IMG/VR virus record: IMGVR_UViG_3300010370_006650
Location: 1 to 58,619 of that record
DNA length: 58,619 bases
From: a virus
Taxonomy: Duplodnaviria; Caudoviricetes
Strand: one strand, 5' to 3'
Part shown: one piece after another, positions 25,465 to 54,422 of the stretch
Layout: every line of letters begins with the position of its first letter
Position numbering within the stretch: the first letter of the stretch is position 1
Notes under the pieces: model-generated
The model's input: the letters and a program-made list of their open reading frames with translations, nothing else
Database searches by the model: none
Told to the model about the DNA's origin: nothing
Program-made: the position numbers and the translations under genes

Positions 25465-25906
25465 AAGACCAACTAACCCAATCTGGATTAAAGTTTTAAC
25501 AGACGATATTTCGCAAATTCCAGCATATCAAACATCTGGTTCCGCGGCTTGTGACTTAAAGTCCACCGATGAGTTAGTTATTCCTTCAGGAACGCGCGTA
25601 ACAGTAGGAACTGGTATTAAGCTAGAGATTCCTAACGGTTTTGGTGCAATGGTATGCTCACGGTCGGGTCTAGCTGCCAAGAACGGAATTCAGGTTCTAA
25701 ACGCTCCTGGCATCATTGATACCGACTATAGAGGAGAGATAAAGGTAATTCTGCATAACTCAGGTCAGTCAGAGTTTATTGTTAAAAAAGGCGATAGGAT
25801 TGCACAACTTTTATTTTTCCCCATTTTTCAAGCCATCTTTCAAAAGGCAGAACTAATTGACAATACTGCTCGTGGCGAAGGCGGTCTTGGAAGTACTGGT
25901 GTTTGA
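25457..25906 (+). CDS. dut: Trimeric dUTPase
   Basis: AACDL, RSGLAAK, GIIDTDYRGE, GDRIAQL, RGEGGLGSTG. Confidence 0.97.
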   Translation: MSERPTNPIWIKVLTDDISQIPAYQTSGSAACDLKSTDELVIPSGTRVTVGTGIKLEIPNGFGAMVCSRSGLAAKNGIQVLNAPGIIDTDYRGEIKVILHNSGQSEFIVKKGDRIAQLLFFPIFQAIFQKAELIDNTARGEGGLGSTGV

Positions 25907-32772: not shown

Positions 32773-32812
32773 AGCTTTATAAAGCGAAGGCATGATGTGT
32801 TATTATGCTGTC

Positions 32813-33472
32813 ATGCCTTCGCAACAGAACAAAGTAGAGTTAATTGGCTATTATGGATCGGATGAAACTCATGCCCTTTCAGCTTGGACGTCAACGTCGA
32901 GAGACCTGACTGAAGACAAGAAAAATAGAATCCCTAAACTACTTAAGATGCTCGCAGAAAACGGGCATGAAACGCCTTTTGAAAAGTCTTCGCTACATTT
33001 TCTTGTAACGACAGAGATAGCTACACACGCGCAACTCCTTAAACATCGCATCGGCGTCTCTATCAACGCCGAGTCTGCTCGTTATAAAGAGCTCAAGGAC
33101 GATAAGTACTATGTTCCAGTCGATTGGGACCTCGAAGAACGTGAGCAATATATCGAACACATGGAAGCGAGTCTTCAAAAGTACCACAGTACGTTAGAAC
33201 GCTTGGTACAAAAAGGGATGAGTCGTAAGCGTGCAAAGGAATCGGCTAGGCTTTATCTTCCATACGGTAATCAAATTACGGCTGACGTAATGTTTAATTT
33301 CCGTAGTTTTGTTCATTTCCTACGCTTGAGATATTCTGATCATGCTCAAGTCGAAATTAAAGACATCGCAAAGCAAATGTTGGACTTGGTCGTAGAAACC
33401 AATTCGTTCTCAGCTACTCTTGAGGCGTTTGGGTTGATGAATGGAAATGAATTAAGAGGACCGTTTACATGA
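32813..33472 (+). CDS. thyX: Flavin-dependent thymidylate synthase ThyX
   Basis: GHETPFE, QLLKHR..SINAESARY, KESARLYLP, NFRSFVHFLRLR..HAQVEI. Confidence 0.95.
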   Translation: MPSQQNKVELIGYYGSDETHALSAWTSTSRDLTEDKKNRIPKLLKMLAENGHETPFEKSSLHFLVTTEIATHAQLLKHRIGVSINAESARYKELKDDKYYVPVDWDLEEREQYIEHMEASLQKYHSTLERLVQKGMSRKRAKESARLYLPYGNQITADVMFNFRSFVHFLRLRYSDHAQVEIKDIAKQMLDLVVETNSFSATLEAFGLMNGNELRGPFT

Positions 33473-34065
33473 GCAAATTAATCGTTATTGAAGGCGCCGA
33501 TCGGTGTGGTAAAGCGACGCAAGCAAGGTTGCTTCGCGAATATATGGCCAGCTTTGGCATTATGTCGACCATCGTCGAAGTACCAATTAGGTCTGTCGTT
33601 ACGTATAGAGTCGTATATTGGATGCTTCAGAATGGCCTCGCCAAAAAATTCCCAAAAACATTTCAAGTATTACAGTTCCTTAATAGAAAGATTTTTCAGA
33701 TCTTTTCTTTGCCTCGTTTAGAAAGCGAGTACGATGTTATTATCTTTGATAGATGGAGCCTATCCACGATAGTGTACGGCGGCGCTTCTGGCGTATCAGA
33801 CGAATTTACGACGCGATTATCAAAACTGTTGCGTCAACCTGATCACACATTCATACTTTTAGGACAATCTTTTCCACACGAAGCTGAAGATGTTTATGAA
33901 GCAGACAAGACTTTGCAGGAAGAGGTAAGACTACGTTACGCTGCCTGGGCGCTAAACAATCCAGACAAGACAACTGTGATTAACTGTCGTCAAAATAAGA
34001 AAAAGATATCTAAAGAGATTAGAGAAATTTTAAAGTCTAAAAAGATTGTTTCAAACTTTCGATAA
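33469..34065 (+). CDS. tmk: Thymidylate kinase
   Basis: IVIEGADRCGKATQ, IFDRWSLST..YG, PDHTFIL. Confidence 0.9.
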   Translation: MSKLIVIEGADRCGKATQARLLREYMASFGIMSTIVEVPIRSVVTYRVVYWMLQNGLAKKFPKTFQVLQFLNRKIFQIFSLPRLESEYDVIIFDRWSLSTIVYGGASGVSDEFTTRLSKLLRQPDHTFILLGQSFPHEAEDVYEADKTLQEEVRLRYAAWALNNPDKTTVINCRQNKKKISKEIREILKSKKIVSNFR

Positions 34066-34452: not shown

Positions 34453-34818
34453 ATGGATAAGCTTCAACAGATGTGGACTCAACAGGAGTCCTTTATGCGA
34501 CTTTTGCAAAAGAAAAGAAATTTTCCCGAGTTTCCAGTAGACGTAGCATCAAAGGGCGGTCAAAAATTTCTTAAGGGAATTACTCACGAATGTATGCACG
34601 AGCTTTTCGAAGCTAATATGATGCTGAAAAACTCAAAAGACCATAGAGCGACCGACGTTACCGAATTTGATAAAGATTCTTACGTAGAAGAACTTGTCGA
34701 TGCGCTTCACTATTTTTTTGAGATCGCTATTACAAGTGGTATTTCGATGGACGAGTTACACGAAGCCTATATGAAGAAGGGTCAAATCAATATCGATCGT
34801 ATTGAGAACGGTTATTAA
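34453..34818 (+). CDS. All-alpha NTP pyrophosphatase (dimeric dUTPase/dCTPase/MazG-like)
   Basis: HELFEA..K..H..EELVDALHYF..YMKKGQINIDRIENGY. Confidence 0.8.
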   Translation: MDKLQQMWTQQESFMRLLQKKRNFPEFPVDVASKGGQKFLKGITHECMHELFEANMMLKNSKDHRATDVTEFDKDSYVEELVDALHYFFEIAITSGISMDELHEAYMKKGQINIDRIENGY

Positions 34819-42716: not shown

Positions 42717-45700
42717 ATGTCGCATACTCCCAAACGTTTCGTCGGTCTTCACGGGCACTCAGGCGCGTCGGTTTTCGATGGACTCGATTACCCACAAGAT
42801 CACATTGATTTCGTCATGGAAAATGGCATGGACGCCTGGTCGCTTACGGACCACGGCCACATGAATGGATTTGGCCATGCGTATCTCCACGCCGAAAAAT
42901 TGCGAAAGTCAGGCAAGAACTTTAAGCTAATTCCTGGTTGCGAGATGTACGTCCATCCCGACCTGAAGCAGTGGCAGGTTGACCTCGAAAAGTCAAAAGA
43001 GAAGCCAGCGAAGAACGAGTCGATTATTACGCCGCTGACGGCCGTGGTCGACGCCAACGACGAGACGGTAGACGTCGGCGTCGAAGAATCTACGCTGACT
43101 ATCGAGAACGAGGACGAAACTAAGTCGGGCAAATACAACGATCCAGTGAAGCGCAGGCACCACCTGGTCGTGCTTCCAAAAACATCCGTTGGTTTGCAAA
43201 GGCTATTTCACCTAGTTTCTAGAGGGTACCTGGAGGGCTTCTATCGCTTCCCCCGTGTCGACTACTCTATGTTAAAGGAGGCCGCGAAGGGCGGTCATCT
43301 GATGGTTAGCACCGCTTGTCTCGGCGGACCATTGTGTTACGACGTTTTTGAACAACTTCAGAAGGTTTCTTTCGAGGAATTAAAGTACACTCTTCTCGAC
43401 GATTCGGCCCTTTTTGAGCGGGTGTTGACGTCGATGGGAAATACGTACGACAAGCTGGTCGACGCTGTCGGTAAAGAGAACGTCTGCCTGGAGATTCAAT
43501 TCAACAAACTATCGGCGCAACACTTGGCCAATAGGGCCATCATCGAGTTCGCGAAGCGTAATTCTCTGACCGACCGCCTCGTAGTTACTTGTGATTCACA
43601 CTATTCTCGACCCGACCACTGGAAGGAGAGAGAAATCTACAAGAAGCTGGGATGGCTCAATTACCAAAGTTTCGACCCAAACTCGCTTCCGAAGTCGCCC
43701 GAAGAATTGAAGTGCGAGCTTTATCCCAAGAACGCGACGCAGATCTGGGATACGTACCGCCAATCGACAGAAGGTATGACGTTCTACGACGACACGATCG
43801 TCTGTGACGCCATTGAACGAACTCACGATATCGTTCACAATGAACTCGCCGACATTCAACCCGATCGTTCGATGAAGCTACCGTCCTACGTCATTCCAGA
43901 AGGTATGACGGAAGACAAGGCCCTCGTCGCTGCGTGTAAGGAAGGATTGGTCTGGCGCGGTTTGGCAGATAGACCCGAGTACATCGAGCGCCTCAAATAC
44001 GAGTTAAAGATCATTCGCGACAAGAAGTTCTCCAACTACTTCTTGACGATGAAGGCCATCCTCGACATTGCAAGAGAAAATATGCTCCTTGGCCCAGGCC
44101 GCGGTTCGGCCGCCGGTGCCTTGGTTGCATATGTGTTGGGCATCACCAACCTCGATCCAATCGAGTACGACCTACCCTTCGAGCGATTCATGAATCCGGC
44201 TCGCCAAGGTTATCCCGATATCGACAGCGACATCTCGGATCGCGATAAGTTGCTCGAACTCCTTCGTGATAAGTTCGGCGCGCAGAACGTAATTCCAATC
44301 TCGAACTATAACACCTTCAAGCTAAAGAGCCTCATCAAGGATATCTCGAGGTTCTATGGAATTCCATTCGAAGAAGTCAACGCTGCGATGGCGCCGATTG
44401 AAGACGACGTGAAGCGCGAGCTGTTCAAGCCAGGCACCGACAAGAACCTCTTCGTGCTTACCTACGAAGACGCGATGAAGTATTCAAAGTCGCTACAGGA
44501 CTTTATCGCCGCGCATCCCGAGGTCGCAGGACCCATCAAGATTCTATTCAAACAGAATCGGTCTCTTGGTCGTCATGCTGGCGGCGTCATCGTTTCGGAA
44601 AACATTGCCGAGAGAATGCCATTGATCCTCGCCCGCGGTGAACCTCAGACGCCGTGGGTCGAGGGCATGACCTATAAGCACCTCGAGGAACTTGGCTGGA
44701 TTAAGTTCGACTTGCTCGGCCTCGAAACCTTGCGCATCATTGAGCGAACCATCCACCTTATCCTCCAGCGTCGAGAAGGTATCGCCAACCCGACGTTTCC
44801 ACAGATCCGTGCGTGGTTCGATAAGCACATGGATCCGAAGAACATCGACCTGAACGATCAAAAGGTCTATGAATACGTTTACCATGAAGGTCGATTCGCA
44901 GGCGTATTCCAGCTTGCAGGTCAAGGCGCGCAGCGTCTCTTTATGAAGGCGAAGCCCAAGAACATTATCGATATCGCGACCTTGACATCGATTTTTCGTC
45001 CGGGCCCCCTCGCCGCAGGCGTCGATAAATTATATGTCAACTCGAAGAACGAACCAGACAAGATCGATTATCAACATCCTTTAATTAAAAAGGTTTTGGA
45101 ACCGACGTATGGTTGTATCGTATTTCAGGAGCAAATCATGAAATTGTGCTCTGTCGTTGCTGGTTTTCCCGAGGCAGAGACAGACACGATTCGTCGAAAT
45201 CTATTGAAGAGAACTGCTGCGAAGAGAGATGCTAACTTTGACGAAGCGAAGAAGACGAAGGACGAATTCGTTGCCGGATCGGTTAGAAATGGCGTTCCTG
45301 AAAAAATTGCCGACGATCTTTTCGAGAAGATCTTGTACTTCGCTGGATACGGCTTTAACGCATCGCACGCTGTGTCTTATGCGATCGATTCTTACTATTG
45401 CGCTTGGCTCCTCACCTACTTTGAGGAGGAGTGGCTGTGCGCGTATCTCGAGTCGATGTCGGGTACCGACGACAAGCGAGCCAAGGCGTTCTCCGAAGTG
45501 AAGGCTCTCGGTTATAAGATCGTCAACGTCGACATCAATTATGCAACGGATAGTTGGACGATTCTAGATGGCAAGCGATTCATGCCAAGCTTCTTGTCCT
45601 GTAAGGGCGTTGGCTCGGCGGCGATCGAAGAACTCATCGAGAATCGACCCTATAAGTCTATCGAAGAGATGCTGTGGTACCCGACAGGTCAATGGCGACA

Positions 45701-46286
45701 TTCAAAGTTTAATAAACGAGCGCTTGAGGCTCTTGTAGCCATCAAGGCTTTCGATTCTCTCGATTGCGTCGGTCCCGACAAGACCTTCAACAACTACAAA
45801 CAAATGTACGAAGTGTTGATCAATCGCAACAACGAGATCAAGAAGTGGACGAAGAAGAATCCGACTGCAGGTATGGAAGCTTTCAAGGCAGCGTTAATCG
45901 AGACCCAGGACATTGAAGACTGGACGCGCCGCGAAATTGTCGACAATAGCACCAAGTACCTGAGTTCGTTCAACCCAGCAACTCTGGTACCTGACTACAT
46001 CCTTTCCAAGTTCGAAGAGAAGGGAATTAAGCCTATCGACGAAGTAGAAGCCAGCGACGTCTATTGGTTTGTAGTCATGGGCGTCAAGGAGAAGAAGACG
46101 AAGAATGGTAAACCATACTTGATGTTGGATACTTCGGGTCCAACTGGACAAATCAAACGACTGTTTTGTTGGGGTTGGAATGGCGAGACCGAAATCCCTG
46201 TTTATTCGGTCTGTATTTCAGAAGTCACTGTAGATAGTTTCGGGTGCAAAACGTTCGTTAGTAAGATTAAGATCTTGGAGGGTTGA
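42717..46286 (+). CDS. dnaE: DNA polymerase III alpha subunit
   Basis: PHP domain HGH..DG..TDHG..GCE; GPGRGSAAG; PDIDSD; GRHAGG; IKFDLLGL; YGFNASHAVSY. Confidence 0.97.
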   Translation: MSHTPKRFVGLHGHSGASVFDGLDYPQDHIDFVMENGMDAWSLTDHGHMNGFGHAYLHAEKLRKSGKNFKLIPGCEMYVHPDLKQWQVDLEKSKEKPAKNESIITPLTAVVDANDETVDVGVEESTLTIENEDETKSGKYNDPVKRRHHLVVLPKTSVGLQRLFHLVSRGYLEGFYRFPRVDYSMLKEAAKGGHLMVSTACLGGPLCYDVFEQLQKVSFEELKYTLLDDSALFERVLTSMGNTYDKLVDAVGKENVCLEIQFNKLSAQHLANRAIIEFAKRNSLTDRLVVTCDSHYSRPDHWKEREIYKKLGWLNYQSFDPNSLPKSPEELKCELYPKNATQIWDTYRQSTEGMTFYDDTIVCDAIERTHDIVHNELADIQPDRSMKLPSYVIPEGMTEDKALVAACKEGLVWRGLADRPEYIERLKYELKIIRDKKFSNYFLTMKAILDIARENMLLGPGRGSAAGALVAYVLGITNLDPIEYDLPFERFMNPARQGYPDIDSDISDRDKLLELLRDKFGAQNVIPISNYNTFKLKSLIKDISRFYGIPFEEVNAAMAPIEDDVKRELFKPGTDKNLFVLTYEDAMKYSKSLQDFIAAHPEVAGPIKILFKQNRSLGRHAGGVIVSENIAERMPLILARGEPQTPWVEGMTYKHLEELGWIKFDLLGLETLRIIERTIHLILQRREGIANPTFPQIRAWFDKHMDPKNIDLNDQKVYEYVYHEGRFAGVFQLAGQGAQRLFMKAKPKNIIDIATLTSIFRPGPLAAGVDKLYVNSKNEPDKIDYQHPLIKKVLEPTYGCIVFQEQIMKLCSVVAGFPEAETDTIRRNLLKRTAAKRDANFDEAKKTKDEFVAGSVRNGVPEKIADDLFEKILYFAGYGFNASHAVSYAIDSYYCAWLLTYFEEEWLCAYLESMSGTDDKRAKAFSEVKALGYKIVNVDINYATDSWTILDGKRFMPSFLSCKGVGSAAIEELIENRPYKSIEEMLWYPTGQWRHSKFNKRALEALVAIKAFDSLDCVGPDKTFNNYKQMYEVLINRNNEIKKWTKKNPTAGMEAFKAALIETQDIEDWTRREIVDNSTKYLSSFNPATLVPDYILSKFEEKGIKPIDEVEASDVYWFVVMGVKEKKTKNGKPYLMLDTSGPTGQIKRLFCWGWNGETEIPVYSVCISEVTVDSFGCKTFVSKIKILEG

Positions 46287-46287
46287 C

Positions 46288-46776
46288 ATGAAAACAGGCG
46301 GTATTATCGTTGAGGGCGCTGAACAGCAAGGTAAGTCTACTTTCTGCGACAAATTGTCAAAACGACTCGGTGTAGAAATCATTCATATGCACAAAGGCTA
46401 TGGTTTCGTCGACGGCAAGTTCGATTACCTGACAGGTTATTTTTACGACATCGATCGCCGACCTGGTCCTTTCATCTACGATCGCTCGTATGTTTCCGAG
46501 CTGGCTTATGGCAAGGTTTTTCAGCGAAACAATATAACACCAGAAATTCTGCAAGGAATTGAATCTCGCTTTCAGGATCTAGGTTATTTTCTTGTCCTAC
46601 TGGAACTAAACTTGCCGTGGATCGATCGAGCAGAGACTGTCACTCAAGAGCAGAACGAAAAAGTCAAAAAGGCTTACCGAGAAGTTTTTCCGCAACTAAA
46701 GATCGACAAATTCCTGATAAATCCATCGGATGACGCCGTAGAATTTATCGCTAAACAATACGAGGCCAGAAGATGA
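46288..46776 (+). CDS. Deoxynucleotide monophosphate kinase (thymidylate kinase-like)
   Basis: IIVEGAEQQGKST P-loop; YDRSYVSELAYG. Confidence 0.85.
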   Translation: MKTGGIIVEGAEQQGKSTFCDKLSKRLGVEIIHMHKGYGFVDGKFDYLTGYFYDIDRRPGPFIYDRSYVSELAYGKVFQRNNITPEILQGIESRFQDLGYFLVLLELNLPWIDRAETVTQEQNEKVKKAYREVFPQLKIDKFLINPSDDAVEFIAKQYEARR

Positions 46777-48032
46777 AAATTTTGCTATTGACCTATGGTA
46801 ACGAGAGTTCTATCGAGATGATTCGCAGCATCGCGGAGCTGAATACTCACGAAGTATACGGTTGCCACTATGATACGATCAACGCAGGCCTCGCATACCT
46901 GAACAAAAATTACATTGTCGAATGCCCTAATCCTTTCAAGACAGCGCCCCAATTCTTGAAGTGGTTGGACAACTTCGTCATCGACGCAGATATCGACAAG
47001 GTTTTTGTTACAAATTGCAAGATGCTTAAATTCTTGTACGACAACTGGAACGATGTTGGTTGTCACGACAAGCTAGCGATCCCTGGCAAGGATAATTTGG
47101 CTCCATGTTTATTCAAAAATAAGTTATACGAACTATTACCGGATATTTCTCCGAGAGTTTTTAAGAGTCATGAAGAAGCACCAACCGACGTCGATCTCTT
47201 CGCCAAGCCTTGTTATAGTTCCTCTGCCGAAGGCGCTCGAAAACTAAAGAACAATGTTGCTTCTTGGCAAAGCGTTACGACGGAAGATGTCGTGACCGAA
47301 TACCTACCAGGAGAAGAGTTCACGGTAGATTGTGTCTCTACTCCAGACGGCGACGTAGTAGACTGGAATGTGAGGCTTCGAGCTAGAATTAGGGATGGCA
47401 TTACTTCGTACGGTCGCTCGGCTCCCGAATATTGGGAGTTGATCGGTGAGCACGTTAAGACGATCGCTAAGAAGTTGAAACTACCCTACTTTTGGTTCGC
47501 TCAATTTAAGTTTGATTCTAATGGCGTTCCTAGGTTGCTCGAGGTTAACTGTCGAATTAGCGGTAGTTTTTGCATTACAAAGGCCTCGCGAAAGGATTAC
47601 GTCAAATTCGCAATGGCGGATTTCGCAGATGGAATTATCGTGAAGGGTCCTGCAGGTGGCCGTCATGCGATCGCTCGCCACATGAATGTCTTGCCAGTCG
47701 CAAAGAAAACTTGGGTGTGGGACATCGACGGCACAATCTGCACAGAAACTGGTGGTAACTATCACTTGTGCGAACCATTTACGGATGCTATTAAGAAGCT
47801 AAACATGTTGCACGATAGAGGCGACGAGATCGTTTTACATACCGCCCGTGGTATGAAGAGGTTCAACAACGATGTTTCGGCAGTTTACCAAAATCTTTAT
47901 GAACTAACCAAAAAACAATTAGAGGCGTGGGGTGTAAGATACGATAAGCTCATTATGGGCAAACCTTATGGTACGTTAGTCGACGCTGACGCTATTACAG
48001 TTGACGATCTACAATTAGAGGAGACAAAATGA
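46773..48032 (+). CDS. ATP-grasp protein (carbamoyl-phosphate synthase-like) fused to HAD phosphatase
   Basis: FAKP..SSA, EYLPGEEFTVD, QFK..LLEVNCRISGS; C-terminal WDIDGTIC..HTARGM..YDKLIMGKP. Confidence 0.8.
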   Translation: MKILLLTYGNESSIEMIRSIAELNTHEVYGCHYDTINAGLAYLNKNYIVECPNPFKTAPQFLKWLDNFVIDADIDKVFVTNCKMLKFLYDNWNDVGCHDKLAIPGKDNLAPCLFKNKLYELLPDISPRVFKSHEEAPTDVDLFAKPCYSSSAEGARKLKNNVASWQSVTTEDVVTEYLPGEEFTVDCVSTPDGDVVDWNVRLRARIRDGITSYGRSAPEYWELIGEHVKTIAKKLKLPYFWFAQFKFDSNGVPRLLEVNCRISGSFCITKASRKDYVKFAMADFADGIIVKGPAGGRHAIARHMNVLPVAKKTWVWDIDGTICTETGGNYHLCEPFTDAIKKLNMLHDRGDEIVLHTARGMKRFNNDVSAVYQNLYELTKKQLEAWGVRYDKLIMGKPYGTLVDADAITVDDLQLEETK

Positions 48033-49798
48033 AAACCACAACGGCATTGATGCTTACGCTTGGACACAATTCTTCTGCAGTTTATTTCGATGGAGAAAAA
48101 GCCGTCGGGTACGAAGAAGAGAGACTAAACAGAGTTAAGTCTTCAAGCGCTTATCCGCGTTTGTCTCTTGAGGAGATCGAAAAGAACGTAAAGATTCAAC
48201 CCGGAAGTTACGTTTTTGTATCACACTGGTTTGATCGTTTAAACTTCGACGAAACCTCTAGCAAGTATTTTGATAAAGAGCACTTCGATTCTTTCGTCGC
48301 TAAGTACTCTTTGCGTAAAGTCATTTTGAGCGAAGGATTCACTCATCACGATGCCCACGCATGGTCAGTCGTTTCGTTCCTGAGAAATAAGCGGCAACCA
48401 CGCCACGATGCGCTACTTTCGCCGGGTGATAAGTTCCACGTGATTGCTGCAGATGGTTATGGAACCTTCCAGGAAGTCTTTAGCGTTTATGAATTCGACG
48501 CTAACGATAATTCTTCTAGACTGAAGTTAGTCGATAGGTTCCATGGCTACAACTATTCTTTGGGACTTATGTATCAATATGCTACTTCGTATTGCGGCAT
48601 GAAGGAGAACCAGGACGAGTATAAGTTCTTGGGATACGAAACGCATGTTACGAATCTTTTATCTCCAAGCTCGATTGATCTTTTGAGAGATATCGCTCGC
48701 CAAAAATCAACGAACATGTTCAATTCGATGATCTCTACGAAGGATTGTAGATCATCTACCTGGCAAGACCCAAACAACCTCGTCAACTTGAAGTCGCTGT
48801 CGGAAACAAAAGAATACTGGACAAAACACTTCGACGAAGTATTGTCCGCCGTATCACCAGGAATTTCAGGTCGCAACCTGAGAATCGTCATCGGTCACTA
48901 TATTCAAGAATTGATCGAGGGCGTTGTCACAAAGATGATCGACCATTATTCTATTAAACACTTAGCTTTGGCAGGTGGAATTTTTTATAACGTTAAGTTA
49001 AACAACAAGGCTTTACATAAAGTGCCTGGATTGTTCTCGGTCGTGCCACTGGCTGGCGATCAAGGTTGCGGCGTCGGTATGTACGAAGCTCATGTTGGTG
49101 GATTCGAATGGGGCGATTTAAAATGGGGGCCGCGACCACAGTTCGCTACGTGGCAATCGAAGGTCTCGACTGAAGACTTATCAAGGTATGGTAATCATAT
49201 TCAATATTACTCGGCAGCAGACAGAGAGCGCGCCGTCGAAGATACGGTCAGCTCGCTCGAAGCCAACGAATTAGTCAACGTAGTAAAGTGCAAAATGGAG
49301 TTTGGTCCAAGAGCGTTGTGCAGCACGACCACGCTGGCTATTCCAACTACATCCAATGTCGAGATTATTAACGACATTAACGAACGCGATACCGTTATGC
49401 CGATGGCGCCAGTTATGTTGAGTTCCGCCGTCGATAACTTCTTCGATACCAGCTATAGCAATCGTGTAATTGGTTCGGATAGATTCATGATCTTAACGTA
49501 CGACTATGTGTCTCCAGATCTTGAAAACTACGGAGGTATCGCTCACAAGTATCCTGACTACGACGTGTGGTCTGGTCGCCCACAGCTAATCGATTCAGAC
49601 GATGCCTTTATGACATCCGTACTTTCTAAGCTAAGCCATAAGTCTAAGGCGCTGATCAATACTAGTTTCAACGCACACGGTCGACCAATCGTTTACGCGT
49701 TAGATAGCGTATTGGATAGTTTTAAGTTTGAATTCGATAAGGCTATGGAGCTTGGTCATAAGCTTCCCCTTCTCTATCTTTGCGACTTTGATGGTTGA
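48029..49798 (+). CDS. Carbamoyltransferase (CmcH/NodU family)
   Basis: EEERLNRVK, HHDAHA, DGYG, SLGLMY, LAGGIFYNVKLN, GDQG, EFGPRAL, INTSFN..GRPIV. Confidence 0.92.
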   Translation: MKTTTALMLTLGHNSSAVYFDGEKAVGYEEERLNRVKSSSAYPRLSLEEIEKNVKIQPGSYVFVSHWFDRLNFDETSSKYFDKEHFDSFVAKYSLRKVILSEGFTHHDAHAWSVVSFLRNKRQPRHDALLSPGDKFHVIAADGYGTFQEVFSVYEFDANDNSSRLKLVDRFHGYNYSLGLMYQYATSYCGMKENQDEYKFLGYETHVTNLLSPSSIDLLRDIARQKSTNMFNSMISTKDCRSSTWQDPNNLVNLKSLSETKEYWTKHFDEVLSAVSPGISGRNLRIVIGHYIQELIEGVVTKMIDHYSIKHLALAGGIFYNVKLNNKALHKVPGLFSVVPLAGDQGCGVGMYEAHVGGFEWGDLKWGPRPQFATWQSKVSTEDLSRYGNHIQYYSAADRERAVEDTVSSLEANELVNVVKCKMEFGPRALCSTTTLAIPTTSNVEIINDINERDTVMPMAPVMLSSAVDNFFDTSYSNRVIGSDRFMILTYDYVSPDLENYGGIAHKYPDYDVWSGRPQLIDSDDAFMTSVLSKLSHKSKALINTSFNAHGRPIVYALDSVLDSFKFEFDKAMELGHKLPLLYLCDFDG

Positions 49799-49800
49799 AC

Positions 49801-50466
49801 ATGATTATCGTAAAACAGCCTGAATTTGAGAACGACGACTATCTGTTTAGGATTGAAGCGCATAAATTACCAAAAGCCGGAGAAGCTCTGTCTTTTCTTA
49901 AGAAGATCGATCCGTTTGCAGCGGATTACTATTGGTCGAAGAGACAGGCCTTTCTGACGCAAGATACCAATCCAAGCGTTTTTTCTAAATTTGTCCAGGA
50001 TAAACCTAGCTTGAGGAGCTTGTCCGACTTAGACGCGTTGGACTCTACGATCTATACTGTCGCTTGTGAAAGAGAGAATAATCTTGGTTATCGAGATATT
50101 CTTATGAATTTAAAGCGACACCTGTTGCAAAAACCTGAGACTCGTCGTTGCATGTTAAGATTCGCCAATAGCTATGAAAGATACCATATCAGCGAGTCTG
50201 CAAGACCCCTAGATGTGACTTGTCTAAGTTTAATTCATTATCTAAAGCAAGGACCTAAACTAGTTTTTAGGGCGTCAGATGTAAGAAACGAATTGTTGGT
50301 CGATATCTTGACTATCAACGAATTTTTTATCGATCCTGTTTATAATTCTAATTTCAAAAATTACCAGATGTCAGTATATTCTTCTACCGCACAGTGTGTT
50401 TCAAGCTGGAATAACTTTGTAAATTTATTGCAGCGTTCGTATAGCGTCGGAGGAGAAAATAGATGA
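49801..50466 (+). CDS. Divergent thymidylate-synthase-fold protein
   Basis: KPETRR, DVTCLSLIHY, VFRASD..LLVD align with TS PDSRR, PC, RSxD..N/D motifs. Confidence 0.55.
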   Translation: MIIVKQPEFENDDYLFRIEAHKLPKAGEALSFLKKIDPFAADYYWSKRQAFLTQDTNPSVFSKFVQDKPSLRSLSDLDALDSTIYTVACERENNLGYRDILMNLKRHLLQKPETRRCMLRFANSYERYHISESARPLDVTCLSLIHYLKQGPKLVFRASDVRNELLVDILTINEFFIDPVYNSNFKNYQMSVYSSTAQCVSSWNNFVNLLQRSYSVGGENR

Positions 50467-51452
50467 AATGTTTGATAACGGGCATCGCAGGATTATTGGG
50501 CGCAAACTTTTCGAGACATCTACTAGAAAAAAATTACAAAGTAGTCGGAATTGACGATTTAAGTGGAGGATACGAAGAGTTTGTTCCACCCTCGGCAATT
50601 TTTTATAAAGTCGATTTAACTCGCGCAGATGCAGTCAATCAAATCTTCGAAAGAGAAAGCCCAGATTGCGTTTTCCATTTCGCTGCTTACGCCGCAGAAG
50701 GATTGAGTCCTTTCGTCAGAAATTACAACTACACCAATAACGTTATCGCTTCTGCGAATGTAATCAATGCTGCTATTAACAACAACATCAAGAAAGTCGT
50801 CTATACTTCTTCGATGGCGGTTTATGGTACAGGTAATCCACCATTCGTAGAAGAACAATTGCCGATTCCAGAAGATCCCTATGGCATCGCGAAGTATGCT
50901 GTAGAAATGGACTTTAAGTTGGCGCGCGAAATGTTCGGCCTGCGATACAGTATTGTTCGACCACATAACGTTGTTGGTGTTTACCAAAACATATGGGATC
51001 GCTATCGTAACGTAATCGGGATATGGATTAGACAGGCTATTGCAGGCGAACCACTTACGATATATGGAGACGGCACACAAGTCCGCGCCTTTTCCGACAT
51101 CAAATTCTACATGGAACCATTTGAGAAATTGATGACCGATCACGATGGTGAAATCTTTAACATTGGCGCCGACAAGTATGTTACGATAAACGAGGCCGCC
51201 GACGTGGTCCTAGACGTTGCTAAAGAATTTGGTATTAACGCGACTAAGGTTCATTTAGAAAAGAGAAATGAGGTTCATGCTGCTTATTGCGACCATGCGA
51301 AGGCTCGTAATCTTTTGAACTTTAACGACGATACTAACCTAAGAGAAACAGTAAACACGATGTTCGGTTGGGCGCTAACTCAACCTGTTCGCGACACGAA
51401 GCGTATGAAGTACGAGATAGAAAAAAACATTTATTCTTTTTGGAAAAAATGA
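50463..51452 (+). CDS. NAD-dependent NDP-sugar epimerase/dehydratase
   Basis: ITGIAGLLG, TSSMAVYG, PYGIAK, RPHNVVG, IYGDGTQVRAF. Confidence 0.92.
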   Translation: MKCLITGIAGLLGANFSRHLLEKNYKVVGIDDLSGGYEEFVPPSAIFYKVDLTRADAVNQIFERESPDCVFHFAAYAAEGLSPFVRNYNYTNNVIASANVINAAINNNIKKVVYTSSMAVYGTGNPPFVEEQLPIPEDPYGIAKYAVEMDFKLAREMFGLRYSIVRPHNVVGVYQNIWDRYRNVIGIWIRQAIAGEPLTIYGDGTQVRAFSDIKFYMEPFEKLMTDHDGEIFNIGADKYVTINEAADVVLDVAKEFGINATKVHLEKRNEVHAAYCDHAKARNLLNFNDDTNLRETVNTMFGWALTQPVRDTKRMKYEIEKNIYSFWKK

Positions 51453-51465
51453 GGTATAAGTTAAC

Positions 51466-52428
51466 ATGAAAATGAAACGCGTATTAGTTACGGGTGGCGC
51501 TGGATTTATTGGTAGCAATTTAGTAAAAGCTCTCGTCGATAGGGGCGCAGAAGTCGACGTCGTCGACAATATGTCGAATGGACATAAAGAGTTTGTGCCA
51601 GCTGGTTGTAACTTGTTCGTTGCTGATTTTGCGTCGGAAGATATTCTGTCGAAGATCAAGGCAAAAACATACGATGTAGTTTTTCATTTGGCTGCAATTC
51701 CTCGTGTTAGTTACTCGGTTGAACATCCTGTTGAAACGCACGAGACGAATGTGAATGCTACATTGAAGTTGATCGATACATGTAGAAACAACATTAGACG
51801 ATTTGTCTTCGCTTCATCATCGTCAGTATACGGTGGCGCCGATGCTTTGCCAACGCCAGTTTCTTCTCCTAAAAACCCAAAGTCGCCATACGCTTTGCAG
51901 AAATCTATCATAGAAGACTATTTGTCTCTATATCACCTGCTGTACGGTCTCGACTCAGTAAGCCTTAGATTTTTTAACGTTTTTGGACCTAATCAGTTAG
52001 GTGATTCTCCGTACGCTACTGCAGTGTCAGCCTGGTTGACTGCTATTCACCATGGAAGATCGATGCGATCTGATGGAGATGGTTCACAATCGCGCGATAT
52101 GTGTTATGTCGATAACGTCGTAGACGCTTGCATAAGAAGCGCTGAGGCTGATGCTGAGCTAAGAGGAGTTGCGTTGAATGTTGCTTGCGGCGATCGTAAC
52201 ACGAACAAATCAATACTAGAATTTCTTTTGTCTAAGTATCCAAACGCCAAGTACCATGATGCTCCATGGAGACCAGGCGACGTGATGCACACGCAGGCAG
52301 ACATTAGCAAAACTCATGAACTTCTTGGATACGTTCCTTTGGTTCGTTTCTGGGAAGGATTAGAACGAACGATGAAATGGTACGAGGAAAACTGGTCTTT
52401 AATCAGCTCATTGAGTCTATCTAAATGA
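51466..52428 (+). CDS. NAD-dependent NDP-sugar epimerase (UDP-Glc/GlcNAc 4-epimerase-like)
   Basis: VTGGAGFIGS, ASSSSVYG, SPYALQK, RFFNVFGP, GDGSQSRD, RPGDV. Confidence 0.92.
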   Translation: MKMKRVLVTGGAGFIGSNLVKALVDRGAEVDVVDNMSNGHKEFVPAGCNLFVADFASEDILSKIKAKTYDVVFHLAAIPRVSYSVEHPVETHETNVNATLKLIDTCRNNIRRFVFASSSSVYGGADALPTPVSSPKNPKSPYALQKSIIEDYLSLYHLLYGLDSVSLRFFNVFGPNQLGDSPYATAVSAWLTAIHHGRSMRSDGDGSQSRDMCYVDNVVDACIRSAEADAELRGVALNVACGDRNTNKSILEFLLSKYPNAKYHDAPWRPGDVMHTQADISKTHELLGYVPLVRFWEGLERTMKWYEENWSLISSLSLSK

Positions 52429-53417
52429 AAGCATATCATAATTTTACCGAAGCGTACGTCGATATCATTCGTGATGTCTATACGTCGCCAGAGTTTACTT
52501 CATCGCCCCGCGGCATGAAAGTAAAAGAAATTTTAGGTTATCAATTTAAGATTCTAAATCCAAGAAATCGAATCCCTTATGTTAAGGGAAGAGACTTTTC
52601 AATTCACTATATGGTTGCTGAATTACTTTGGTATTTAAGTGGCAACGATTCGACTAATTGGATTTCGAATTATTCGACATTCTGGTCTAAGATTTCAGAC
52701 GACGGCGAAACAGCAAATAGCGCTTATGGTGCTAGAATTTTTAAGTCACACGATCGTATCGCAAAAACTGTCGACGAAAATTGGACGCAATGGAATTACG
52801 TGGTCGAAGAACTAAAGAAAGACCCAGACTCTCGTCGCGCCGTAATTCACATACGTTCTCCCCAAGATTCGATATTGGCGCAACTCGATGTTCCTTGCAC
52901 TTTGTCTCTTCAATTCTTTTTGCGTGGAGATAAGGTTTACATGGTTACCTCGATGCGATCGTCAGATGTTATTCTTGGATTGGCGTACGACGTACCTGCT
53001 TTTACGCTCTTTCAAGAACTTCTCGCTTTACAGCTAACTAAGGAACTAGGTCGACCCATTGGCTTAGGCGACTATACTCATCTCAGCGCTTCTCTACACG
53101 TTTATGAGAGGCACTTTAAAATGGTCGAAAAAATATTGGATGAAGATACTCGGCGAGATTATCGAGACGTTTTAGAGATGCCGCAGATGCCCGACAATCC
53201 ACCCCTTGGGAGGCTAATGTCGCTCGAAAACGATATTAGGAATCTCAATGACGAACAAAAACTAGTAGATTTCGAAATTGGGTTTGAAGATTACTGGAAG
53301 GATTGGGCAAAAGTGCTGGTTTCTCATCGCTTACAAAAGCTAGGTAATGTTGGGCTTGCCAATCAGTCGCTTCTTTCCACGAACTTTGAAGGTTATAAAT
53401 ATTTTGTAAAAGAGTGA
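52425..53417 (+). CDS. Thymidylate synthase-family enzyme, probable dCMP hydroxymethylase
   Basis: AELLWYLSG, SAYGAR, DPDSRRA, DVPCT, MRSSDVILGLAYD, SLHVYERH; Asp at the ThyA Asn position. Confidence 0.88.
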   Translation: MKAYHNFTEAYVDIIRDVYTSPEFTSSPRGMKVKEILGYQFKILNPRNRIPYVKGRDFSIHYMVAELLWYLSGNDSTNWISNYSTFWSKISDDGETANSAYGARIFKSHDRIAKTVDENWTQWNYVVEELKKDPDSRRAVIHIRSPQDSILAQLDVPCTLSLQFFLRGDKVYMVTSMRSSDVILGLAYDVPAFTLFQELLALQLTKELGRPIGLGDYTHLSASLHVYERHFKMVEKILDEDTRRDYRDVLEMPQMPDNPPLGRLMSLENDIRNLNDEQKLVDFEIGFEDYWKDWAKVLVSHRLQKLGNVGLANQSLLSTNFEGYKYFVKE

Positions 53418-53420
53418 AAC

Positions 53421-53981
53421 ATGAATCCGACTTTTACGATTTATACGGGTCCGATGTTTTCTGCCAAGACGACATCGCTTCTTTCGGTCTTGGATCGATA
53501 CAAATACCAAGGGAAAAAGATCGTTGCATTTAAACCGCAACTTGACGATCGATATAGCGTAGACAATATATCAACGCACGGTGGCTGGAAAGTTCCAGCA
53601 ATTTGTGTTAAAGCAGGTAGCGATATTTTAGAAAAATTAGCAGAGCTGGACTTTAACCCACACGTCATCGCCGTAGATGAAGCTTTCATGATTCCTGGCG
53701 TAGCTGAGGTTCTTATTTGGCTGTATAGAAGTGGTTATACGATAGTCGCGTCTAGCTTAGATTTGTCTGCCACGGGCAAGCCCTTCGAGGAAATTGAAAA
53801 GATGCTGCCTTGGGCTACGAAGATTGAAAAGTTAAGTGCGGTTTGTGTTGTTTGCAATAAAGATGCTTTTTATACCTACAAAAAACAAACGGGTGGAGAT
53901 GAAATCGAAGTTGGTGGCGTTGAATTATACGAACCGAGATGTTCGCGGTGCCATCCGTTAATTATCAATCCGGAGGCCTGA
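53421..53981 (+). CDS. tdk: Thymidine kinase
   Basis: GPMFSAKTT, FKPQLDDRY, VDEAF, AVCVVC, VGGVELYEPRCSRC. Confidence 0.93.
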   Translation: MNPTFTIYTGPMFSAKTTSLLSVLDRYKYQGKKIVAFKPQLDDRYSVDNISTHGGWKVPAICVKAGSDILEKLAELDFNPHVIAVDEAFMIPGVAEVLIWLYRSGYTIVASSLDLSATGKPFEEIEKMLPWATKIEKLSAVCVVCNKDAFYTYKKQTGGDEIEVGGVELYEPRCSRCHPLIINPEA

Positions 53982-54422
53982 ATGGAATTGATACGTCCTT
54001 CTTGGCCAGAAACATGGATGGCCATTGCTCATCTTGTTGCGCAAAGATCTTATGATCCAACTTTAAAAGTAGGCGCGATCATTGTGTCAGAAGACAATTC
54101 TCAAATGTTGTCTATTGGTTATAATGGTAATTATCGCGGGGGGCCCCACGAAAGAGAATCACAAACGCCTGGACAAAGTGGTTTTATACACGCTGAAGTA
54201 AATGCTTTGGTTAAGTGCGATTTTAATTTTCACAAAAAGAAGCACATGTATTTAACACATTCACCATGTCGTCATTGTGCAAAATTAATTGTGAATGCAG
54301 AGATATCTACAGTTATATATGATATTCCCTATCGGGATGTTTCGGGACTGGAAATTTTAACTTCTGTTGGAATTAAGGTTTTTAATCTTAGTGATGCTAT
54401 AATTAACAATAAGACTTTATGA
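53982..54422 (+). CDS. dCMP deaminase
   Basis: QRS..KVGAII..SIGYNG..HAEVNAL..HSPCRHC. Confidence 0.92.
   Translation: MELIRPSWPETWMAIAHLVAQRSYDPTLKVGAIIVSEDNSQMLSIGYNGNYRGGPHERESQTPGQSGFIHAEVNALVKCDFNFHKKKHMYLTHSPCRHCAKLIVNAEISTVIYDIPYRDVSGLEILTSVGIKVFNLSDAIINNKTL

What the first reader, a model, noticed from the sequence alone, without database searches (positions are those of the whole stretch)
46288..54422. Candidate cytosine hypermodification operon (hydroxymethylase, carbamoyltransferase, ATP-grasp/HAD, second TS-fold protein, two sugar epimerases) coupled to dnaE
Seen: nine genes overlap or nearly abut, starting 1 nt after the dnaE stop: dNMP kinase, ATP-grasp/HAD fusion, CmcH/NodU carbamoyltransferase, divergent TS-fold protein, two NDP-sugar SDRs, full TS-fold enzyme, thymidine kinase, dCMP deaminase. 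Known: T-even phages make hm-dCMP with a TS-fold enzyme plus a dedicated kinase, and phage carbamoyltransferases linked to TS genes have been shown to convert 5hmC to 5-carbamoyloxymethylcytosine. Inference: this phage replaces C with a modified base. The extra ATP-grasp/HAD, second TS-fold protein and sugar epimerases are not needed for that simple two-step route and suggest a more elaborate, possibly undescribed base such as a carbamoylated sugar-cytosine, copied by the phage's own DnaE.
Basis: partly seen in the sequence, partly recalled or inferred. Interest (0 to 1): 0.92.

Follow-up and report, generated by a model that had tools for sequence, protein, structure and literature searches.

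The report
Jumbo-phage carbamoyl-hydroxymethylcytosine operon with extras
An uncultured giant phage carries, just after its DNA polymerase gene, the known gene set for replacing cytosine with carbamoylated 5-hydroxymethylcytosine, plus a second shrunken thymidylate-synthase-like enzyme of unknown role, while the sugar genes in the cluster are neighbours shared with related phages and not clearly part of that pathway.

Summary
Nine tightly coupled + strand genes follow dnaE, with junctions from -4 to +13 nt, and eight of the nine gene identities were verified; the kinase call rests on weak matches.

The core reading is supported.
- The 330-aa TS-fold enzyme carries the residue signature of a dCMP hydroxymethylase, not of thymidylate synthase or of a 5-hydroxy-dCMP synthase.
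- ThyX and Tmk elsewhere in the window cover dTMP synthesis.
- The carbamoyltransferase (CT) belongs to a phage family that sits beside a TS-fold gene in 68 of 78 IMG/VR loci.
- The 223-aa ORF is a real but very divergent TS-fold protein.

The "sugar-cytosine" extension is not supported.
- No glycosyltransferase was found in the window.
- SDR2 occupies the same slot in 47 of 50 related loci that lack CT.
- SDR1 relatives mostly have no nucleotide genes near them; the one examined in detail lies in a glycan island.
- In one other phage the slot of the ATP-grasp/HAD gene holds a true carbamoyl-phosphate synthetase.

This scan already noted the CT plus mini-TS pairing on other genomes. Verdict: a new variant of the 5-carbamoyloxymethylcytosine pathway published in 2021. 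Its accessory steps are unresolved.

The parts
42717..46286 (+). dnaE-type DNA polymerase III alpha (1189 aa), directly upstream of the cluster
   Evidence: PHP, DNA_pol3_alpha, finger and HHH_6 domains. It lies upstream of the cluster in 6 of 8 mini-TS loci.
46288..46776 (+). 162-aa P-loop, Tmk-like nucleotide kinase; proposed 5hm-dCMP (or 5cm-dCMP) kinase
   Evidence: PHROG 761 'thymidylate kinase' 3e-10. Pfam hits are below threshold. P-loop at residue 10 and DRS motif at residue 65. tblastn hits in 7 of 8 mini-TS loci. phmmer hits in 12 of 78 CT loci.
46773..48032 (+). ATP-grasp (ATPgrasp_Ter) fused to a HAD-type phosphatase, 419 aa; accessory gene of unresolved role
   Evidence: Pfam 3e-15. 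PHROG 1238 and 415 on residues 311-402. TIGR01689 and 'carbamoyl phosphate synthase-like' models, both below cut-off. AF2 pLDDT 90.6. Foldseek best matches are 2pn1, PylC, L-amino-acid ligases and biotin carboxylases. Present in 3 of 8 mini-TS loci.
48029..49798 (+). NodU/TobZ-family O-carbamoyltransferase (589 aa); proposed 5hmC carbamoyltransferase
   Evidence: Carbam_trans_N and Carbam_trans_C. PHROG 1601 5e-53. PDB relatives NovN, GdmN and TobZ. 36-37% identical to genes of Bacteroides and Acinetobacter phages that sit beside TS-fold genes. 68 of 78 related loci carry a TS-fold gene.
49795..50466 (+). mini-TS: 223-aa (221 aa from the ATG at 49801) divergent thymidylate-synthase-fold protein
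   Evidence: No family hit. 63 homologues. AF2 pLDDT 93. Foldseek matches MilA and TS. hhalign against the TS330 family gives E 2e-4. Invariant residues include R117, R118, D140, C143, R159, A160, S161, D162 and D170.
50463..51452 (+). SDR1, GalE-like NDP-sugar 4-epimerase-type extended SDR (329 aa)
   Evidence: Epimerase 8e-48. Best PDB match is a UDP-glucose 4-epimerase, 4zrm, 8e-38. In 65 of 80 related loci none of the nucleotide genes lie nearby.
51466..52428 (+). SDR2, UDP-HexNAc/hexose 4-epimerase-like extended SDR (320 aa)
   Evidence: Epimerase 2e-53. Best PDB matches are 6dnt, 6wj9, WbgU and WbpP. It holds the same slot before TS/TK/deaminase in relatives without CT.
52425..53417 (+). 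TS330: MilA-like cytosine-nucleotide C5-hydroxymethylase with deoxy-type residues; proposed dCMP hydroxymethylase
   Evidence: PF00303 6e-31. MilA 3e-44 over the full length. D155, C158, S179, D181, D189, H225, Y227 and R137, read.
53421..53981 (+). thymidine kinase
   Evidence: PF00265 8e-39.
53982..54422 (+). dCMP deaminase
   Evidence: PF00383 9e-21. PHROG 174 1e-43.
32792..34065 (+). ThyX plus thymidylate kinase: a separate dTMP/dTDP route that frees TS330 for cytosine chemistry
   Evidence: Thy1 3e-38 and Thymidylate_kin 2e-14.
34453..34818 (+). MazG-like / dimeric-dUTPase-like NTP pyrophosphohydrolase; candidate dCTP-clearing enzyme (inferred)
   Evidence: dUTPase_2 3e-6. PHROG 12184 9e-14.
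25424..25906 (+). trimeric dUTPase
   Evidence: PF00692 5e-34.

Best explanation
This is a T4-style, nucleotide-level cytosine-replacement operon of an uncultured jumbo myophage. Its end product is most likely 5-carbamoyloxymethylcytosine.

Proposed steps:
1. TS330 converts dCMP to 5-hydroxymethyl-dCMP using methylene-tetrahydrofolate. This is inferred from residues and has not been assayed.
2. The 162-aa Tmk-like kinase raises it to the diphosphate (inferred).
3. The phage DnaE polymerase incorporates it (inferred).
4. The NodU/TobZ-type carbamoyltransferase carbamoylates the 5-CH2OH, using carbamoyl phosphate and ATP, on the nucleotide or on single-stranded DNA. That chemistry was shown for a related enzyme by Yang et al. 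2021.
5. dCMP deaminase, ThyX, Tmk and TK keep dTTP supplied. dUTPase and a MazG-like pyrophosphatase clean the nucleotide pool (inferred).

The mini-TS is a conserved extra enzyme of this cassette. It keeps the cysteine nucleophile and the cytosine- and phosphate-binding residues. It has no recognisable counterpart of the N-terminal (folate-side) half or of the ribose 3'-OH ligands, so its step is unknown.

SDR1 and SDR2 are sugar-nucleotide epimerase-type genes resident in this genomic slot in related phages whether or not they carry CT. The ATP-grasp/HAD is an accessory of a subset of cassettes. It may feed the carbamoyl donor or tailor a sugar nucleotide.
For: TS330:
- Its best solved relative is MilA CMP hydroxymethylase, 3e-44 over the full length. 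The nearest TS scores 1.5e-23 and T4 gp42 scores 4e-13.
- It has Asp at the E. coli L143 and N177 positions, keeps Asp169, and has Ser and Arg where MilA has Ala176 and Lys133.
- These residues are tied to a hydroxymethyl product, cytosine specificity, not being a 5-hydroxy synthase, and deoxyribose preference (sections read).
- All 31 TS-fold hits next to SDR2 relatives share the same signature, DCSDDHY.

dTMP route:
- ThyX and Tmk are encoded elsewhere in the window.
- The complete 297,894-bp relative G001 has exactly one PF00303 gene plus ThyX.

CT:
- It has both carbamoyltransferase domains.
- Of 78 IMG/VR CT loci, 66 carry a TS-family gene and 68 carry a TS-family gene or a mini-TS.
- By eye, many motifs match the assayed enzyme printed in Yang et al..

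Synteny:
- The order dnaE, kinase, CT, mini-TS, TS330, TK, deaminase is conserved across the mini-TS loci.
- Pool-cleaning genes are present in the window.
Against: - No enzyme here has been assayed, and no virion DNA chemistry is available.
- Identity to the assayed CT was not computed.
- The CT family also carbamoylates sugars and antibiotics; NovN, GdmN and TobZ are the nearest solved structures.
- The conserved mini-TS implies that the published two-step route is incomplete for this lineage, so the final base may differ. It occurs in 21 of 78 CT loci, and a further 17 of 78 have a second TS-family ORF.
- Five of 78 CT loci carry the ATP-grasp/HAD, and all five also carry an SDR. This leaves room for a sugar-linked step.
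- Only about 18% of the genome is in the window, so a glycosyltransferase could lie elsewhere. The complete relative G001 has GT1 and GT2 genes in an island at its genome ends.
Confidence: 0.62

Rival explanations
1. The final base goes beyond 5-carbamoyloxymethylcytosine. The mini-TS attacks C6 of 5hm- or 5-carbamoyloxymethyl-dCMP with its cysteine and expels the hydroxyl or carbamate as a leaving group. The exocyclic methylene that results is trapped by another nucleophile, giving an undescribed 5-substituted methylcytosine. The ATP-grasp/HAD might add to or process that group.
For: - The mini-TS keeps an invariant Cys143, Asp140, Arg117/118, Arg159, Asp162 and Asp170 in a confident TS fold.
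- Only residues 103-218 align to the TS330 family. The His/Tyr pair that binds the 3'-OH is not conserved.
- All 8 mini-TS loci from IMG/VR carry CT within a few kb.
- 21 of 78 CT loci carry a mini-TS, and 17 more carry a second TS-family ORF.
Against: - The chemistry is pure inference.
- The cultured phages Effie and BF503P1 have CT but no match to the mini-TS profile.
- Loss of the folate site is inferred from the lack of alignment and has not been shown.
- The assayed CT made a stable 5cmdC product without any partner (passages read).
Confidence: 0.2
2. The SDRs, and perhaps the ATP-grasp/HAD, make a special UDP-sugar. An unidentified glycosyltransferase places it on 5hmC, and the CT possibly carbamoylates the sugar.
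For: - Both SDRs have intact NAD and YxxxK motifs and resemble UDP-hexose or UDP-HexNAc 4-epimerases.
- A preprint shows phage 5hmC glycosyltransferases that depend on a partner epimerase (passages read).
- Sister phages carry, in the CT cassette's slot, a 347-aa protein that the ESM Atlas places with T4 beta-glucosyltransferase-like clusters, scores 0.97-0.98.
- SDR2 sits beside a hydroxymethylase-type TS in 31 of 50 loci.
- A bacterial ATP-grasp relative lies in an NDP-sugar glycan locus.
Against: - The window has no hit to GT1, GT2 or T4-type GT families and no match to the 347-aa protein. The complete CT-type relative G001 also lacks that protein. The PF09198 search rang nowhere, controls included, so it carries little weight.
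- CT and mini-TS occur without any SDR in L010 and L011, and in record G003 (70% complete).
- The CT phages Effie and BF503P1 have no SDR.
- Only 9 of 78 CT loci have an SDR.
- 11 of 50 SDR2 loci have TK and deaminase but no TS-fold hit.
Confidence: 0.12
3. The cluster makes a small-molecule nucleoside, mildiomycin-like, or serves a surface or virion glycan, and does not modify DNA.
For: - The nearest solved relative of TS330 is MilA, from a nucleoside-antibiotic pathway.
- CT relatives act in antibiotic pathways.
- ATP-grasp ligases and SDRs are typical of such clusters. This point is recalled and was not tested.
Against: - TS330 has the deoxy-type Ser179 and Arg137 that reverse MilA's preference for CMP.
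- The genes are translationally coupled to dnaE, TK and dCMP deaminase.
- No Pfam family typical of hmCMP N-glycosidases or cytosylglucuronate synthases appeared among the window ORFs scanned.
Confidence: 0.04

Closest known systems
5-hydroxymethylcytosine carbamoyltransferase / 5cmdC route of uncultured sewage phages (Yang et al. 2021, eLife, PMC8670742)
   Same: A two-domain NodU/TobZ-type carbamoyltransferase sits next to a TS-fold gene with a dCMP deaminase nearby. That paper reports the same co-occurrence (passages read), and reproduces it here. Many sequence motifs are shared by eye.
   Different: - This is a jumbo-phage context coupled to dnaE.
- There is an additional conserved mini-TS, an ATP-grasp/HAD and two SDRs.
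- The hydroxymethylase is MilA-like with a C-terminal extension.
- Identity to the assayed enzyme was not computed, and its diagnostic residues were not mapped.
T4 hydroxymethylcytosine pathway (gp42 dCMP hydroxymethylase, gp1 dNMP kinase, cd, tk, gp56 dCTPase, alpha/beta-glucosyltransferases)
   Same: The logic is the same: hydroxymethylase, dedicated kinase, dCMP deaminase, TK and pool-cleaning pyrophosphatases. The gene names on the T4 side are recalled.
   Different: - The decoration is carbamoyl and not glucose.
- TS330 is much closer to MilA than to gp42 (3e-44 against 4e-13).
- dTMP comes from ThyX and not from a ThyA-type td.
- The polymerase is DnaE-type.
MilA CMP 5-hydroxymethylase of mildiomycin biosynthesis (PDB 5jnh, 5b6d)
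   Same: It is the best solved relative of both TS330 (sequence) and the mini-TS (fold). It has Asp at the positions that specify cytosine and a hydroxymethyl product.
   Different: TS330 has Ser179 and Arg137 where MilA has Ala176 and Lys133, which is the deoxy-type pair. The mini-TS has Ala160 like MilA but lacks the His/Tyr ribose ligands.
Flavin-dependent 5-hydroxy-dCMP synthases of the TS fold (RB69 gp48, DLP3 gp80; Lee et al. 2026 NAR, PMC13326640)
   Same: They are TS-fold paralogues with non-folate chemistry that start cytosine hypermodification.
   Different: Their diagnostic D169N change is absent. TS330 keeps Asp181 and the mini-TS keeps an invariant Asp162.
Epimerase-dependent phage 5hmC glycosyltransferase clusters (bioRxiv 10.1101/2023.12.21.572611)
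   Same: Sugar epimerase genes are embedded in a cytosine-modification cluster.
   Different: No glycosyltransferase is present here. The likely equivalent is in sister phages, a 347-aa BGT-like candidate at L084:4950-5993, and not in this window.

Membership tests
Cytosine-nucleotide C5-hydroxymethylase (TS superfamily; T4 gp42 / MilA type), for TS330 | Thymidylat_synt domain above the Pfam cut-off | tested here: met
   108 bits against a cut-off of 24.3.
Cytosine-nucleotide C5-hydroxymethylase, for TS330 | Catalytic Cys (E. coli C146) and Asp in place of N177 (cytosine specificity) | tested here: met
   C158 and D189 are invariant in alignment A2. The spacing 3/23/8 matches L143-C146-D169-N177.
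Cytosine-nucleotide C5-hydroxymethylase, for TS330 | Acidic residue at the L143 position (hydroxymethyl and not methyl product) | tested here: met
   D155.
Cytosine-nucleotide C5-hydroxymethylase, for TS330 | Deoxyribose preference: Ser at MilA A176 and Arg at MilA K133 | tested here: met
   S179 and R137.
Cytosine-nucleotide C5-hydroxymethylase, for TS330 | Makes 5hm-dCMP from dCMP and methylene-THF | not testable with these tools
   This needs an enzyme assay or an in vivo LC-MS assay.
ThyA thymidylate synthase, for TS330 | Asn177 and Leu143 | tested here: not met
   Both positions are Asp. All NCBIfam thymidylate synthase models score below their cut-offs.
5-hydroxy-dCMP synthase (flavin-dependent TS homologue), for TS330 and mini-TS | Asn at the D169 position | tested here: not met
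   TS330 has D181 and the mini-TS has D162, both invariant.
5hmC carbamoyltransferase (Yang et al. 2021), for the 589-aa protein | Carbam_trans_N (Kae1-like) plus Carbam_trans_C (YrdC-like) architecture | tested here: met
   Both domains are above the cut-offs.
5hmC carbamoyltransferase, for the 589-aa protein | Genomic linkage to a TS-fold cytosine-modifying gene | tested here: met
   Met in the window and in 68 of 78 related IMG/VR loci.
5hmC carbamoyltransferase, for the 589-aa protein | Close sequence relationship to the assayed enzyme and its differential residues (W408, G421, R423 in the paper's numbering) | tested here: inconclusive
   Motifs were compared only by eye with the printed sequence. 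No alignment was computed because that sequence is not a stored one. The residues were not mapped. The supplementary figures were not opened.
5hmC carbamoyltransferase, for the 589-aa protein | Carbamoylates 5hmdC in DNA or nucleotides | not testable with these tools
   This needs an assay.
Thymidylate synthase superfamily, for the mini-TS | TS fold | tested here: met
   AF2 pLDDT 93. The Foldseek matches listed are MilA and TS entries, best E 6e-6, TMq 0.46-0.62.
Thymidylate synthase superfamily, for the mini-TS | Sequence-profile membership (PF00303) | tested here: not met
   No Pfam hit. The profile found no TS in the PDB. hhalign against the TS330 family gives only E 2e-4, probability 45%.
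Thymidylate synthase superfamily, for the mini-TS | Folate-side N-terminal half and the His207/Tyr209 3'-OH ligands | tested here: not met
   Residues 1-102 do not align to the TS330 family. The aligned positions of H225 and Y227 are not conserved. Actual folate binding was not tested.
Phage DNA glycosylation system | A DNA glycosyltransferase gene in the cluster or window | tested here: not met
   The window has no GT family in the Pfam scans of its ORFs. It has no match to PF00534, PF00535 or PF09198, and no match to the BGT-like 347-aa protein of sister phages. The window is only about 18% of the genome.
UDP-sugar 4-epimerase (extended SDR), for SDR1 and SDR2 | Epimerase-family domain with a Rossmann glycine motif and YxxxK | tested here: met
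   Pfam. The motifs are visible in the alignments.
UDP-sugar 4-epimerase, for SDR1 and SDR2 | Score above an NCBIfam equivalog cut-off (GalE, TviC and others) | tested here: not met
   All listed NCBIfam models score below their cut-offs, so the substrate is unassigned.

The most novel reading that the evidence does not exclude
The carbamoyl group is a leaving group and not the end point. The folate-less mini-TS re-activates 5-carbamoyloxymethyl-dCMP through its cysteine and swaps the carbamate for another nucleophile. This would be the cytosine counterpart of the pyrophosphate-activated 5hmU route to hypermodified thymidines. It would yield an undescribed DNA base, with the ATP-grasp/HAD either supplying the carbamoyl donor or extending the new group.
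Probability: 0.18. Interest if true: 0.85.

Novelty: new variant of a known kind. Interest (0 to 1): 0.55.

Why it matters
Phage DNA hypermodifications decide which restriction and CRISPR defences work against a phage. They are also a source of enzymes for epigenetic sequencing.

The 5cmdC route has been assayed only for one metagenomic enzyme. This work shows three things.
- The route sits in a clade of jumbo phages as an exchangeable cassette. A glucosyltransferase-like gene occupies the same slot in sister phages.
- A second TS-fold ORF recurs beside the carbamoyltransferase, in 36 of 78 loci.
- Some phages place a carbamoyl-phosphate synthetase in the slot where this one has an uncharacterised ATP-grasp/HAD.

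Each point gives a directly testable hypothesis about missing steps in the pathway.

Tried and rejected
- DNA search of the whole cluster against deposited phage genomes found no match.
- Sequence searches of the mini-TS against Pfam, PHROGs, NCBIfam and the PDB, as a single sequence and as a profile, gave nothing usable. Direct BLASTP against the ORFs that follow CT in BF503P1 and Effie, and against BF503P1's second TS-fold gene, gave no clear homology.
- The kinase has no usable PDB hit by sequence.
- The promoter and terminator scan of 42000-58619 was uninformative. It found 18 terminator-like sites against 15.3 expected.
- Complex prediction on CT plus mini-TS returned 'no answer' (score 0.01, mark 0.32). 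This is not evidence either way.
- PF09198 (T4 glucosyltransferase) rang in no genome, including the controls, so that search says little.
- I considered a mildiomycin-like small-molecule reading. I rejected it on the deoxy-type residues and the replication context.
- I considered that the mini-TS is a 5-hydroxy-dCMP synthase, as an earlier scan note suggested. I rejected it on the retained Asp at the D169 position.
- The count of 6 of 78 CT loci matching the ATP-grasp/HAD profile includes one false member. L281 is a 1079-aa CarB, so the true count is 5.
- The contig-length coincidences between (six pairs) suggest that the mini-TS and the ATP-grasp/HAD share contigs.
- Many IMG/VR loci are redundant copies of near-identical phages, for example L004/L005 and L034-L036, and several are cut by contig ends. 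The locus counts therefore overstate the number of independent cases.
- Literature: the searches 'carbamoyloxymethyl + phage', '5cmdC' and 'carbamoyltransferase + jumbo phage + thymidylate synthase' found only Yang et al. 2021 as relevant. I saw no paper describing the mini-TS or this jumbo-phage cluster.
- Of Yang et al. I read passages. Of Zhao et al. 2016 I read passages. Of Lee et al. 2026 I read the outline and sections 24, 27 and 28. Of the glycosyltransferase preprint I read passages.
- Supplementary files were not opened. Those of Yang et al. (neighbourhood maps, residue positions) may bear on CT membership.

Full report
**What the window is.** It is an IMG/VR virus record of 58,619 bp that CheckV rates as 18% complete. 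It encodes the following:
- tail sheath, tail tube and T4-type baseplate proteins
- gp32-like SSB, RecA and dUTPase
- 5'-3' exonuclease, DnaB, ribonucleotide reductase, ThyX and Tmk
- an N6/N4 DNA methylase and a DnaE-type polymerase

It is therefore a fragment of a large myophage. A related record, G001, is a complete 297,894-bp genome with terminal repeats.

**The observation.** All nine ORFs exist on the + strand at the stated coordinates. Their junctions are +1, -4, -4, -4, -4, +13, -4, +3 and 0 nt.
- Pfam confirms the ATP-grasp, both carbamoyltransferase domains, two Epimerase-family SDRs, the TS domain, TK and dCMP deaminase.
- The HAD-type C-terminal part of the ATP-grasp protein shows in PHROGs and NCBIfam, and as a DIDGT motif.
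- The kinase is only weakly assignable: PHROG 761 at 3e-10, with a P-loop and a DRS motif.
- Coupled genes continue past 54422, so the right-hand boundary is arbitrary.

**The full-length TS-fold enzyme (TS330).** Its best solved relative is MilA, a CMP 5-hydroxymethylase, at 3e-44 over the whole length including the C-terminal extension. The nearest thymidylate synthase scores 1.5e-23 and T4 dCMP hydroxymethylase 4e-13.
- Lee et al. 2026 list the diagnostic positions in E. coli numbering. L143 to Asp or Glu goes with hydroxymethyl products, N177 to Asp with cytosine, and D169 to Asn with flavin-dependent 5-hydroxy-dCMP synthases.
- Zhao et al. 2016 show that MilA's Ala176 and Lys133 give its CMP preference. 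The Ser/Arg pair of TS and T4 gp42 gives dCMP preference.
- TS330 has D155, C158, S179, D181, D189 and R137, with the expected 3/23/8 spacing. By these criteria it is a dCMP hydroxymethylase.
- Because ThyX and Tmk lie elsewhere in the window, TS330 is not needed for dTMP. The complete relative G001 likewise has one PF00303 gene plus ThyX.

**The carbamoyltransferase (CT).** It has both family domains. NovN, GdmN and TobZ are its nearest solved relatives.
- It is 36-37% identical to genes of Bacteroides phages and of Acinetobacter phage Effie, which lie beside TS-fold genes.
- Yang et al. 2021 showed that such a phage enzyme converts 5hmdC to 5-carbamoyloxymethyl-dC, using carbamoyl phosphate and ATP. 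It acts on single-stranded DNA and on 5hmdCTP (passages read).
- The window's protein shares many motifs with their printed sequence by eye. I did not compute an alignment.
- Of 78 IMG/VR loci that encode a relative of this CT, within ±7 kb:
  - 66 carry a TS-family ORF
  - 21 carry a mini-TS
  - 68 carry one or the other
  - 30 carry a dCMP deaminase
  - 9 carry an SDR
- The 10 loci with neither TS type are all cut short by a contig end.
It travels with TS genes.

**The 223-aa ORF (mini-TS).** It has no family or PDB sequence match, but it has 63 homologues of about 215-220 aa.
- An alignment of 34 of those 63 plus the query gave an AlphaFold model with pLDDT 93.
- The Foldseek matches listed for that model are MilA and thymidylate synthases, with probability 1.00 and TMq up to 0.62.
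- Profile-profile alignment against the TS330 family pairs TRRC with SRRA, DVTC with DVPC, FRASD with MRSSD, and the Asp of LVDIL with D189. It gives E 2e-4 but a probability of only 45%.
- Invariant residues include R117, R118, D140, C143, R159, A160, S161, D162 and D170.
- Only residues 103-218 align. The positions matching H225 and Y227 are not conserved.
- It keeps Asp at the D169 position, so it does not fit the 5-hydroxy-dCMP synthase signature.
- All 8 IMG/VR loci found with its profile carry CT.
- The converse does not hold. Effie and BF503P1 have CT without it. Another 17 of 78 CT loci instead carry two TS-family ORFs.
- A complex prediction of CT with the mini-TS gave no verdict.

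**The sugar genes.** SDR2 resembles UDP-GlcNAc/GalNAc 4-epimerases and SDR1 resembles GalE-type enzymes. Neither reaches an NCBIfam cut-off. Their genomic distribution argues against a dedicated role in the CT pathway.
- Of 50 SDR2-related loci, within ±6 kb:
  - 3 carry CT and a mini-TS
  - 28 carry a hydroxymethylase-type TS without CT
  - 11 carry TK or deaminase with no TS hit
  - 8 show SDR2 alone
- Of the best 80 of 178 SDR1 relatives:
  - 65 have none of the nucleotide genes nearby
  - 10 have TS330 without CT
  - 3 have other replication or nucleotide genes
  - 2 have CT
- One SDR1-only locus, examined by Pfam, is an island of SDRs, methyltransferases, GT17 and GT61.
- CT and mini-TS occur without an SDR in L010 and L011. 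Record G003 (70% complete) has no Epimerase-family gene.

**Sister phages.** In sister phages such as L084, the slot between dnaE and SDR1 holds a similar small kinase and a 347-aa protein.
- The ESM Atlas places the 347-aa protein with Glyco_trans_1_2 and T4 beta-glucosyltransferase clusters at 0.97-0.98. This is a lead only.
- That protein is absent from the window and from the CT-type records G001-G003.
- The simplest picture is a conserved block (SDR genes, hydroxymethylase, TK, deaminase) with exchangeable decoration cassettes: a glucosyltransferase-like gene in some phages and CT with the mini-TS in others.
- Epimerase-dependent 5hmC glycosyltransferases are known. The SDRs may therefore serve DNA glycosylation in the sisters. 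In this phage their role is open.

**The ATP-grasp/HAD.** Its model is confident (pLDDT 90.6). It resembles a structural-genomics 'carbamoylphosphate synthase large subunit-like' protein (2pn1), PylC, L-amino-acid ligases and biotin carboxylases. Structure therefore does not settle its chemistry. Two lines of context pull in different directions.
- In L281 the gene directly upstream of CT is a true carbamoyl-phosphate synthetase large subunit, 5.6e-285 to E. coli CarB. An earlier scan note reported a phage CPS in a similar operon. By position, the ATP-grasp here could feed the carbamoyl donor.
- Against that, a 27%-identical bacterial relative sits in a classic NDP-sugar glycan locus. Of 80 bacterial loci, 16 have an SDR nearby and none has CT or TS.
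- All five CT loci with the fusion also carry an SDR.

I leave both roles open.

**Verdict.** The core is the 5cmdC pathway known since 2021, here in a jumbo-phage setting coupled to dnaE. The mini-TS, the ATP-grasp/HAD and the cassette-exchange pattern are the new elements. The carbamoylated sugar-cytosine idea lacks its key component, a glycosyltransferase. Nothing here was assayed, and the final base is a prediction.

Noticed in passing
window 40884-41888 (+): A 334-aa actin-like protein matches the Volactin family over its full length (PF25216, 3e-67). It lies two genes upstream of dnaE and is 93% conserved in L004. An actin homologue of an archaeal-named family in a jumbo phage is unusual.
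   Followed up: no
L084:4950-5993 (+) and about 20 other loci: Sister jumbo phages lack CT and the mini-TS. In the same slot they carry a 347-aa protein that the ESM Atlas groups with T4 beta-glucosyltransferase-like clusters (0.97-0.98). It is flanked by a small kinase, SDR1, SDR2 and a 76%-identical hydroxymethylase. These look like alternative hmC decoration cassettes.
   Followed up: partly
L281:3709-6945 (+): A phage contig of 168,026 bp encodes a full carbamoyl-phosphate synthetase large subunit (5.6e-285 to E. coli CarB) directly upstream of its carbamoyltransferase.
   Followed up: partly
78 CT loci L240-L317: 36 of 78 carbamoyltransferase loci carry two TS-fold ORFs. 19 have a mini-TS plus a TS-family ORF, and 17 have two TS-family ORFs. 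A second TS-fold gene therefore recurs in these loci and is not confined to this clade.
   Followed up: partly
window 4778-10081 and 10361-15655 (+): Two adjacent giant ORFs of 1767 and 1764 aa, and a 1098-aa ORF at 15972-19268, have no Pfam match.
   Followed up: no
window 41898-42659 (+): An N6/N4 DNA methyltransferase gene (PF01555, 2e-33) lies immediately upstream of dnaE. This is a second possible DNA modification in the same phage.
   Followed up: no
window 54687-55400 (+): A 237-aa protein with an Fe/Mn superoxide dismutase C-terminal domain (3e-18) follows the cluster. It is conserved in that position in most related loci.
   Followed up: no
L084:2216-4430, L046:197-5014: In relatives the dnaE gene is interrupted. 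Intein-splicing domains and an inserted ORF are present. The window's dnaE is a single 1189-aa ORF.
   Followed up: no
window 2188-3096, 31000-32007, 35813-36370 (+): Three endonuclease-type ORFs are scattered among core genes: a TnsA-like N-terminal domain, a DUF559 protein and an HNH protein. They are probably homing endonucleases.
   Followed up: no
L011:8685-10001 (+): In a smaller phage (59.8-kb record), a 438-aa fusion of a dNK/AAA_28-type kinase with a uracil-DNA-glycosylase-superfamily domain sits between CT and the mini-TS.
   Followed up: no
window 38975-40063 and 19311-20513 (+): The window also holds an IMP dehydrogenase/GMP reductase family gene (8e-85) and a 400-aa ORF with only part of a family-A DNA polymerase domain.
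   Followed up: no
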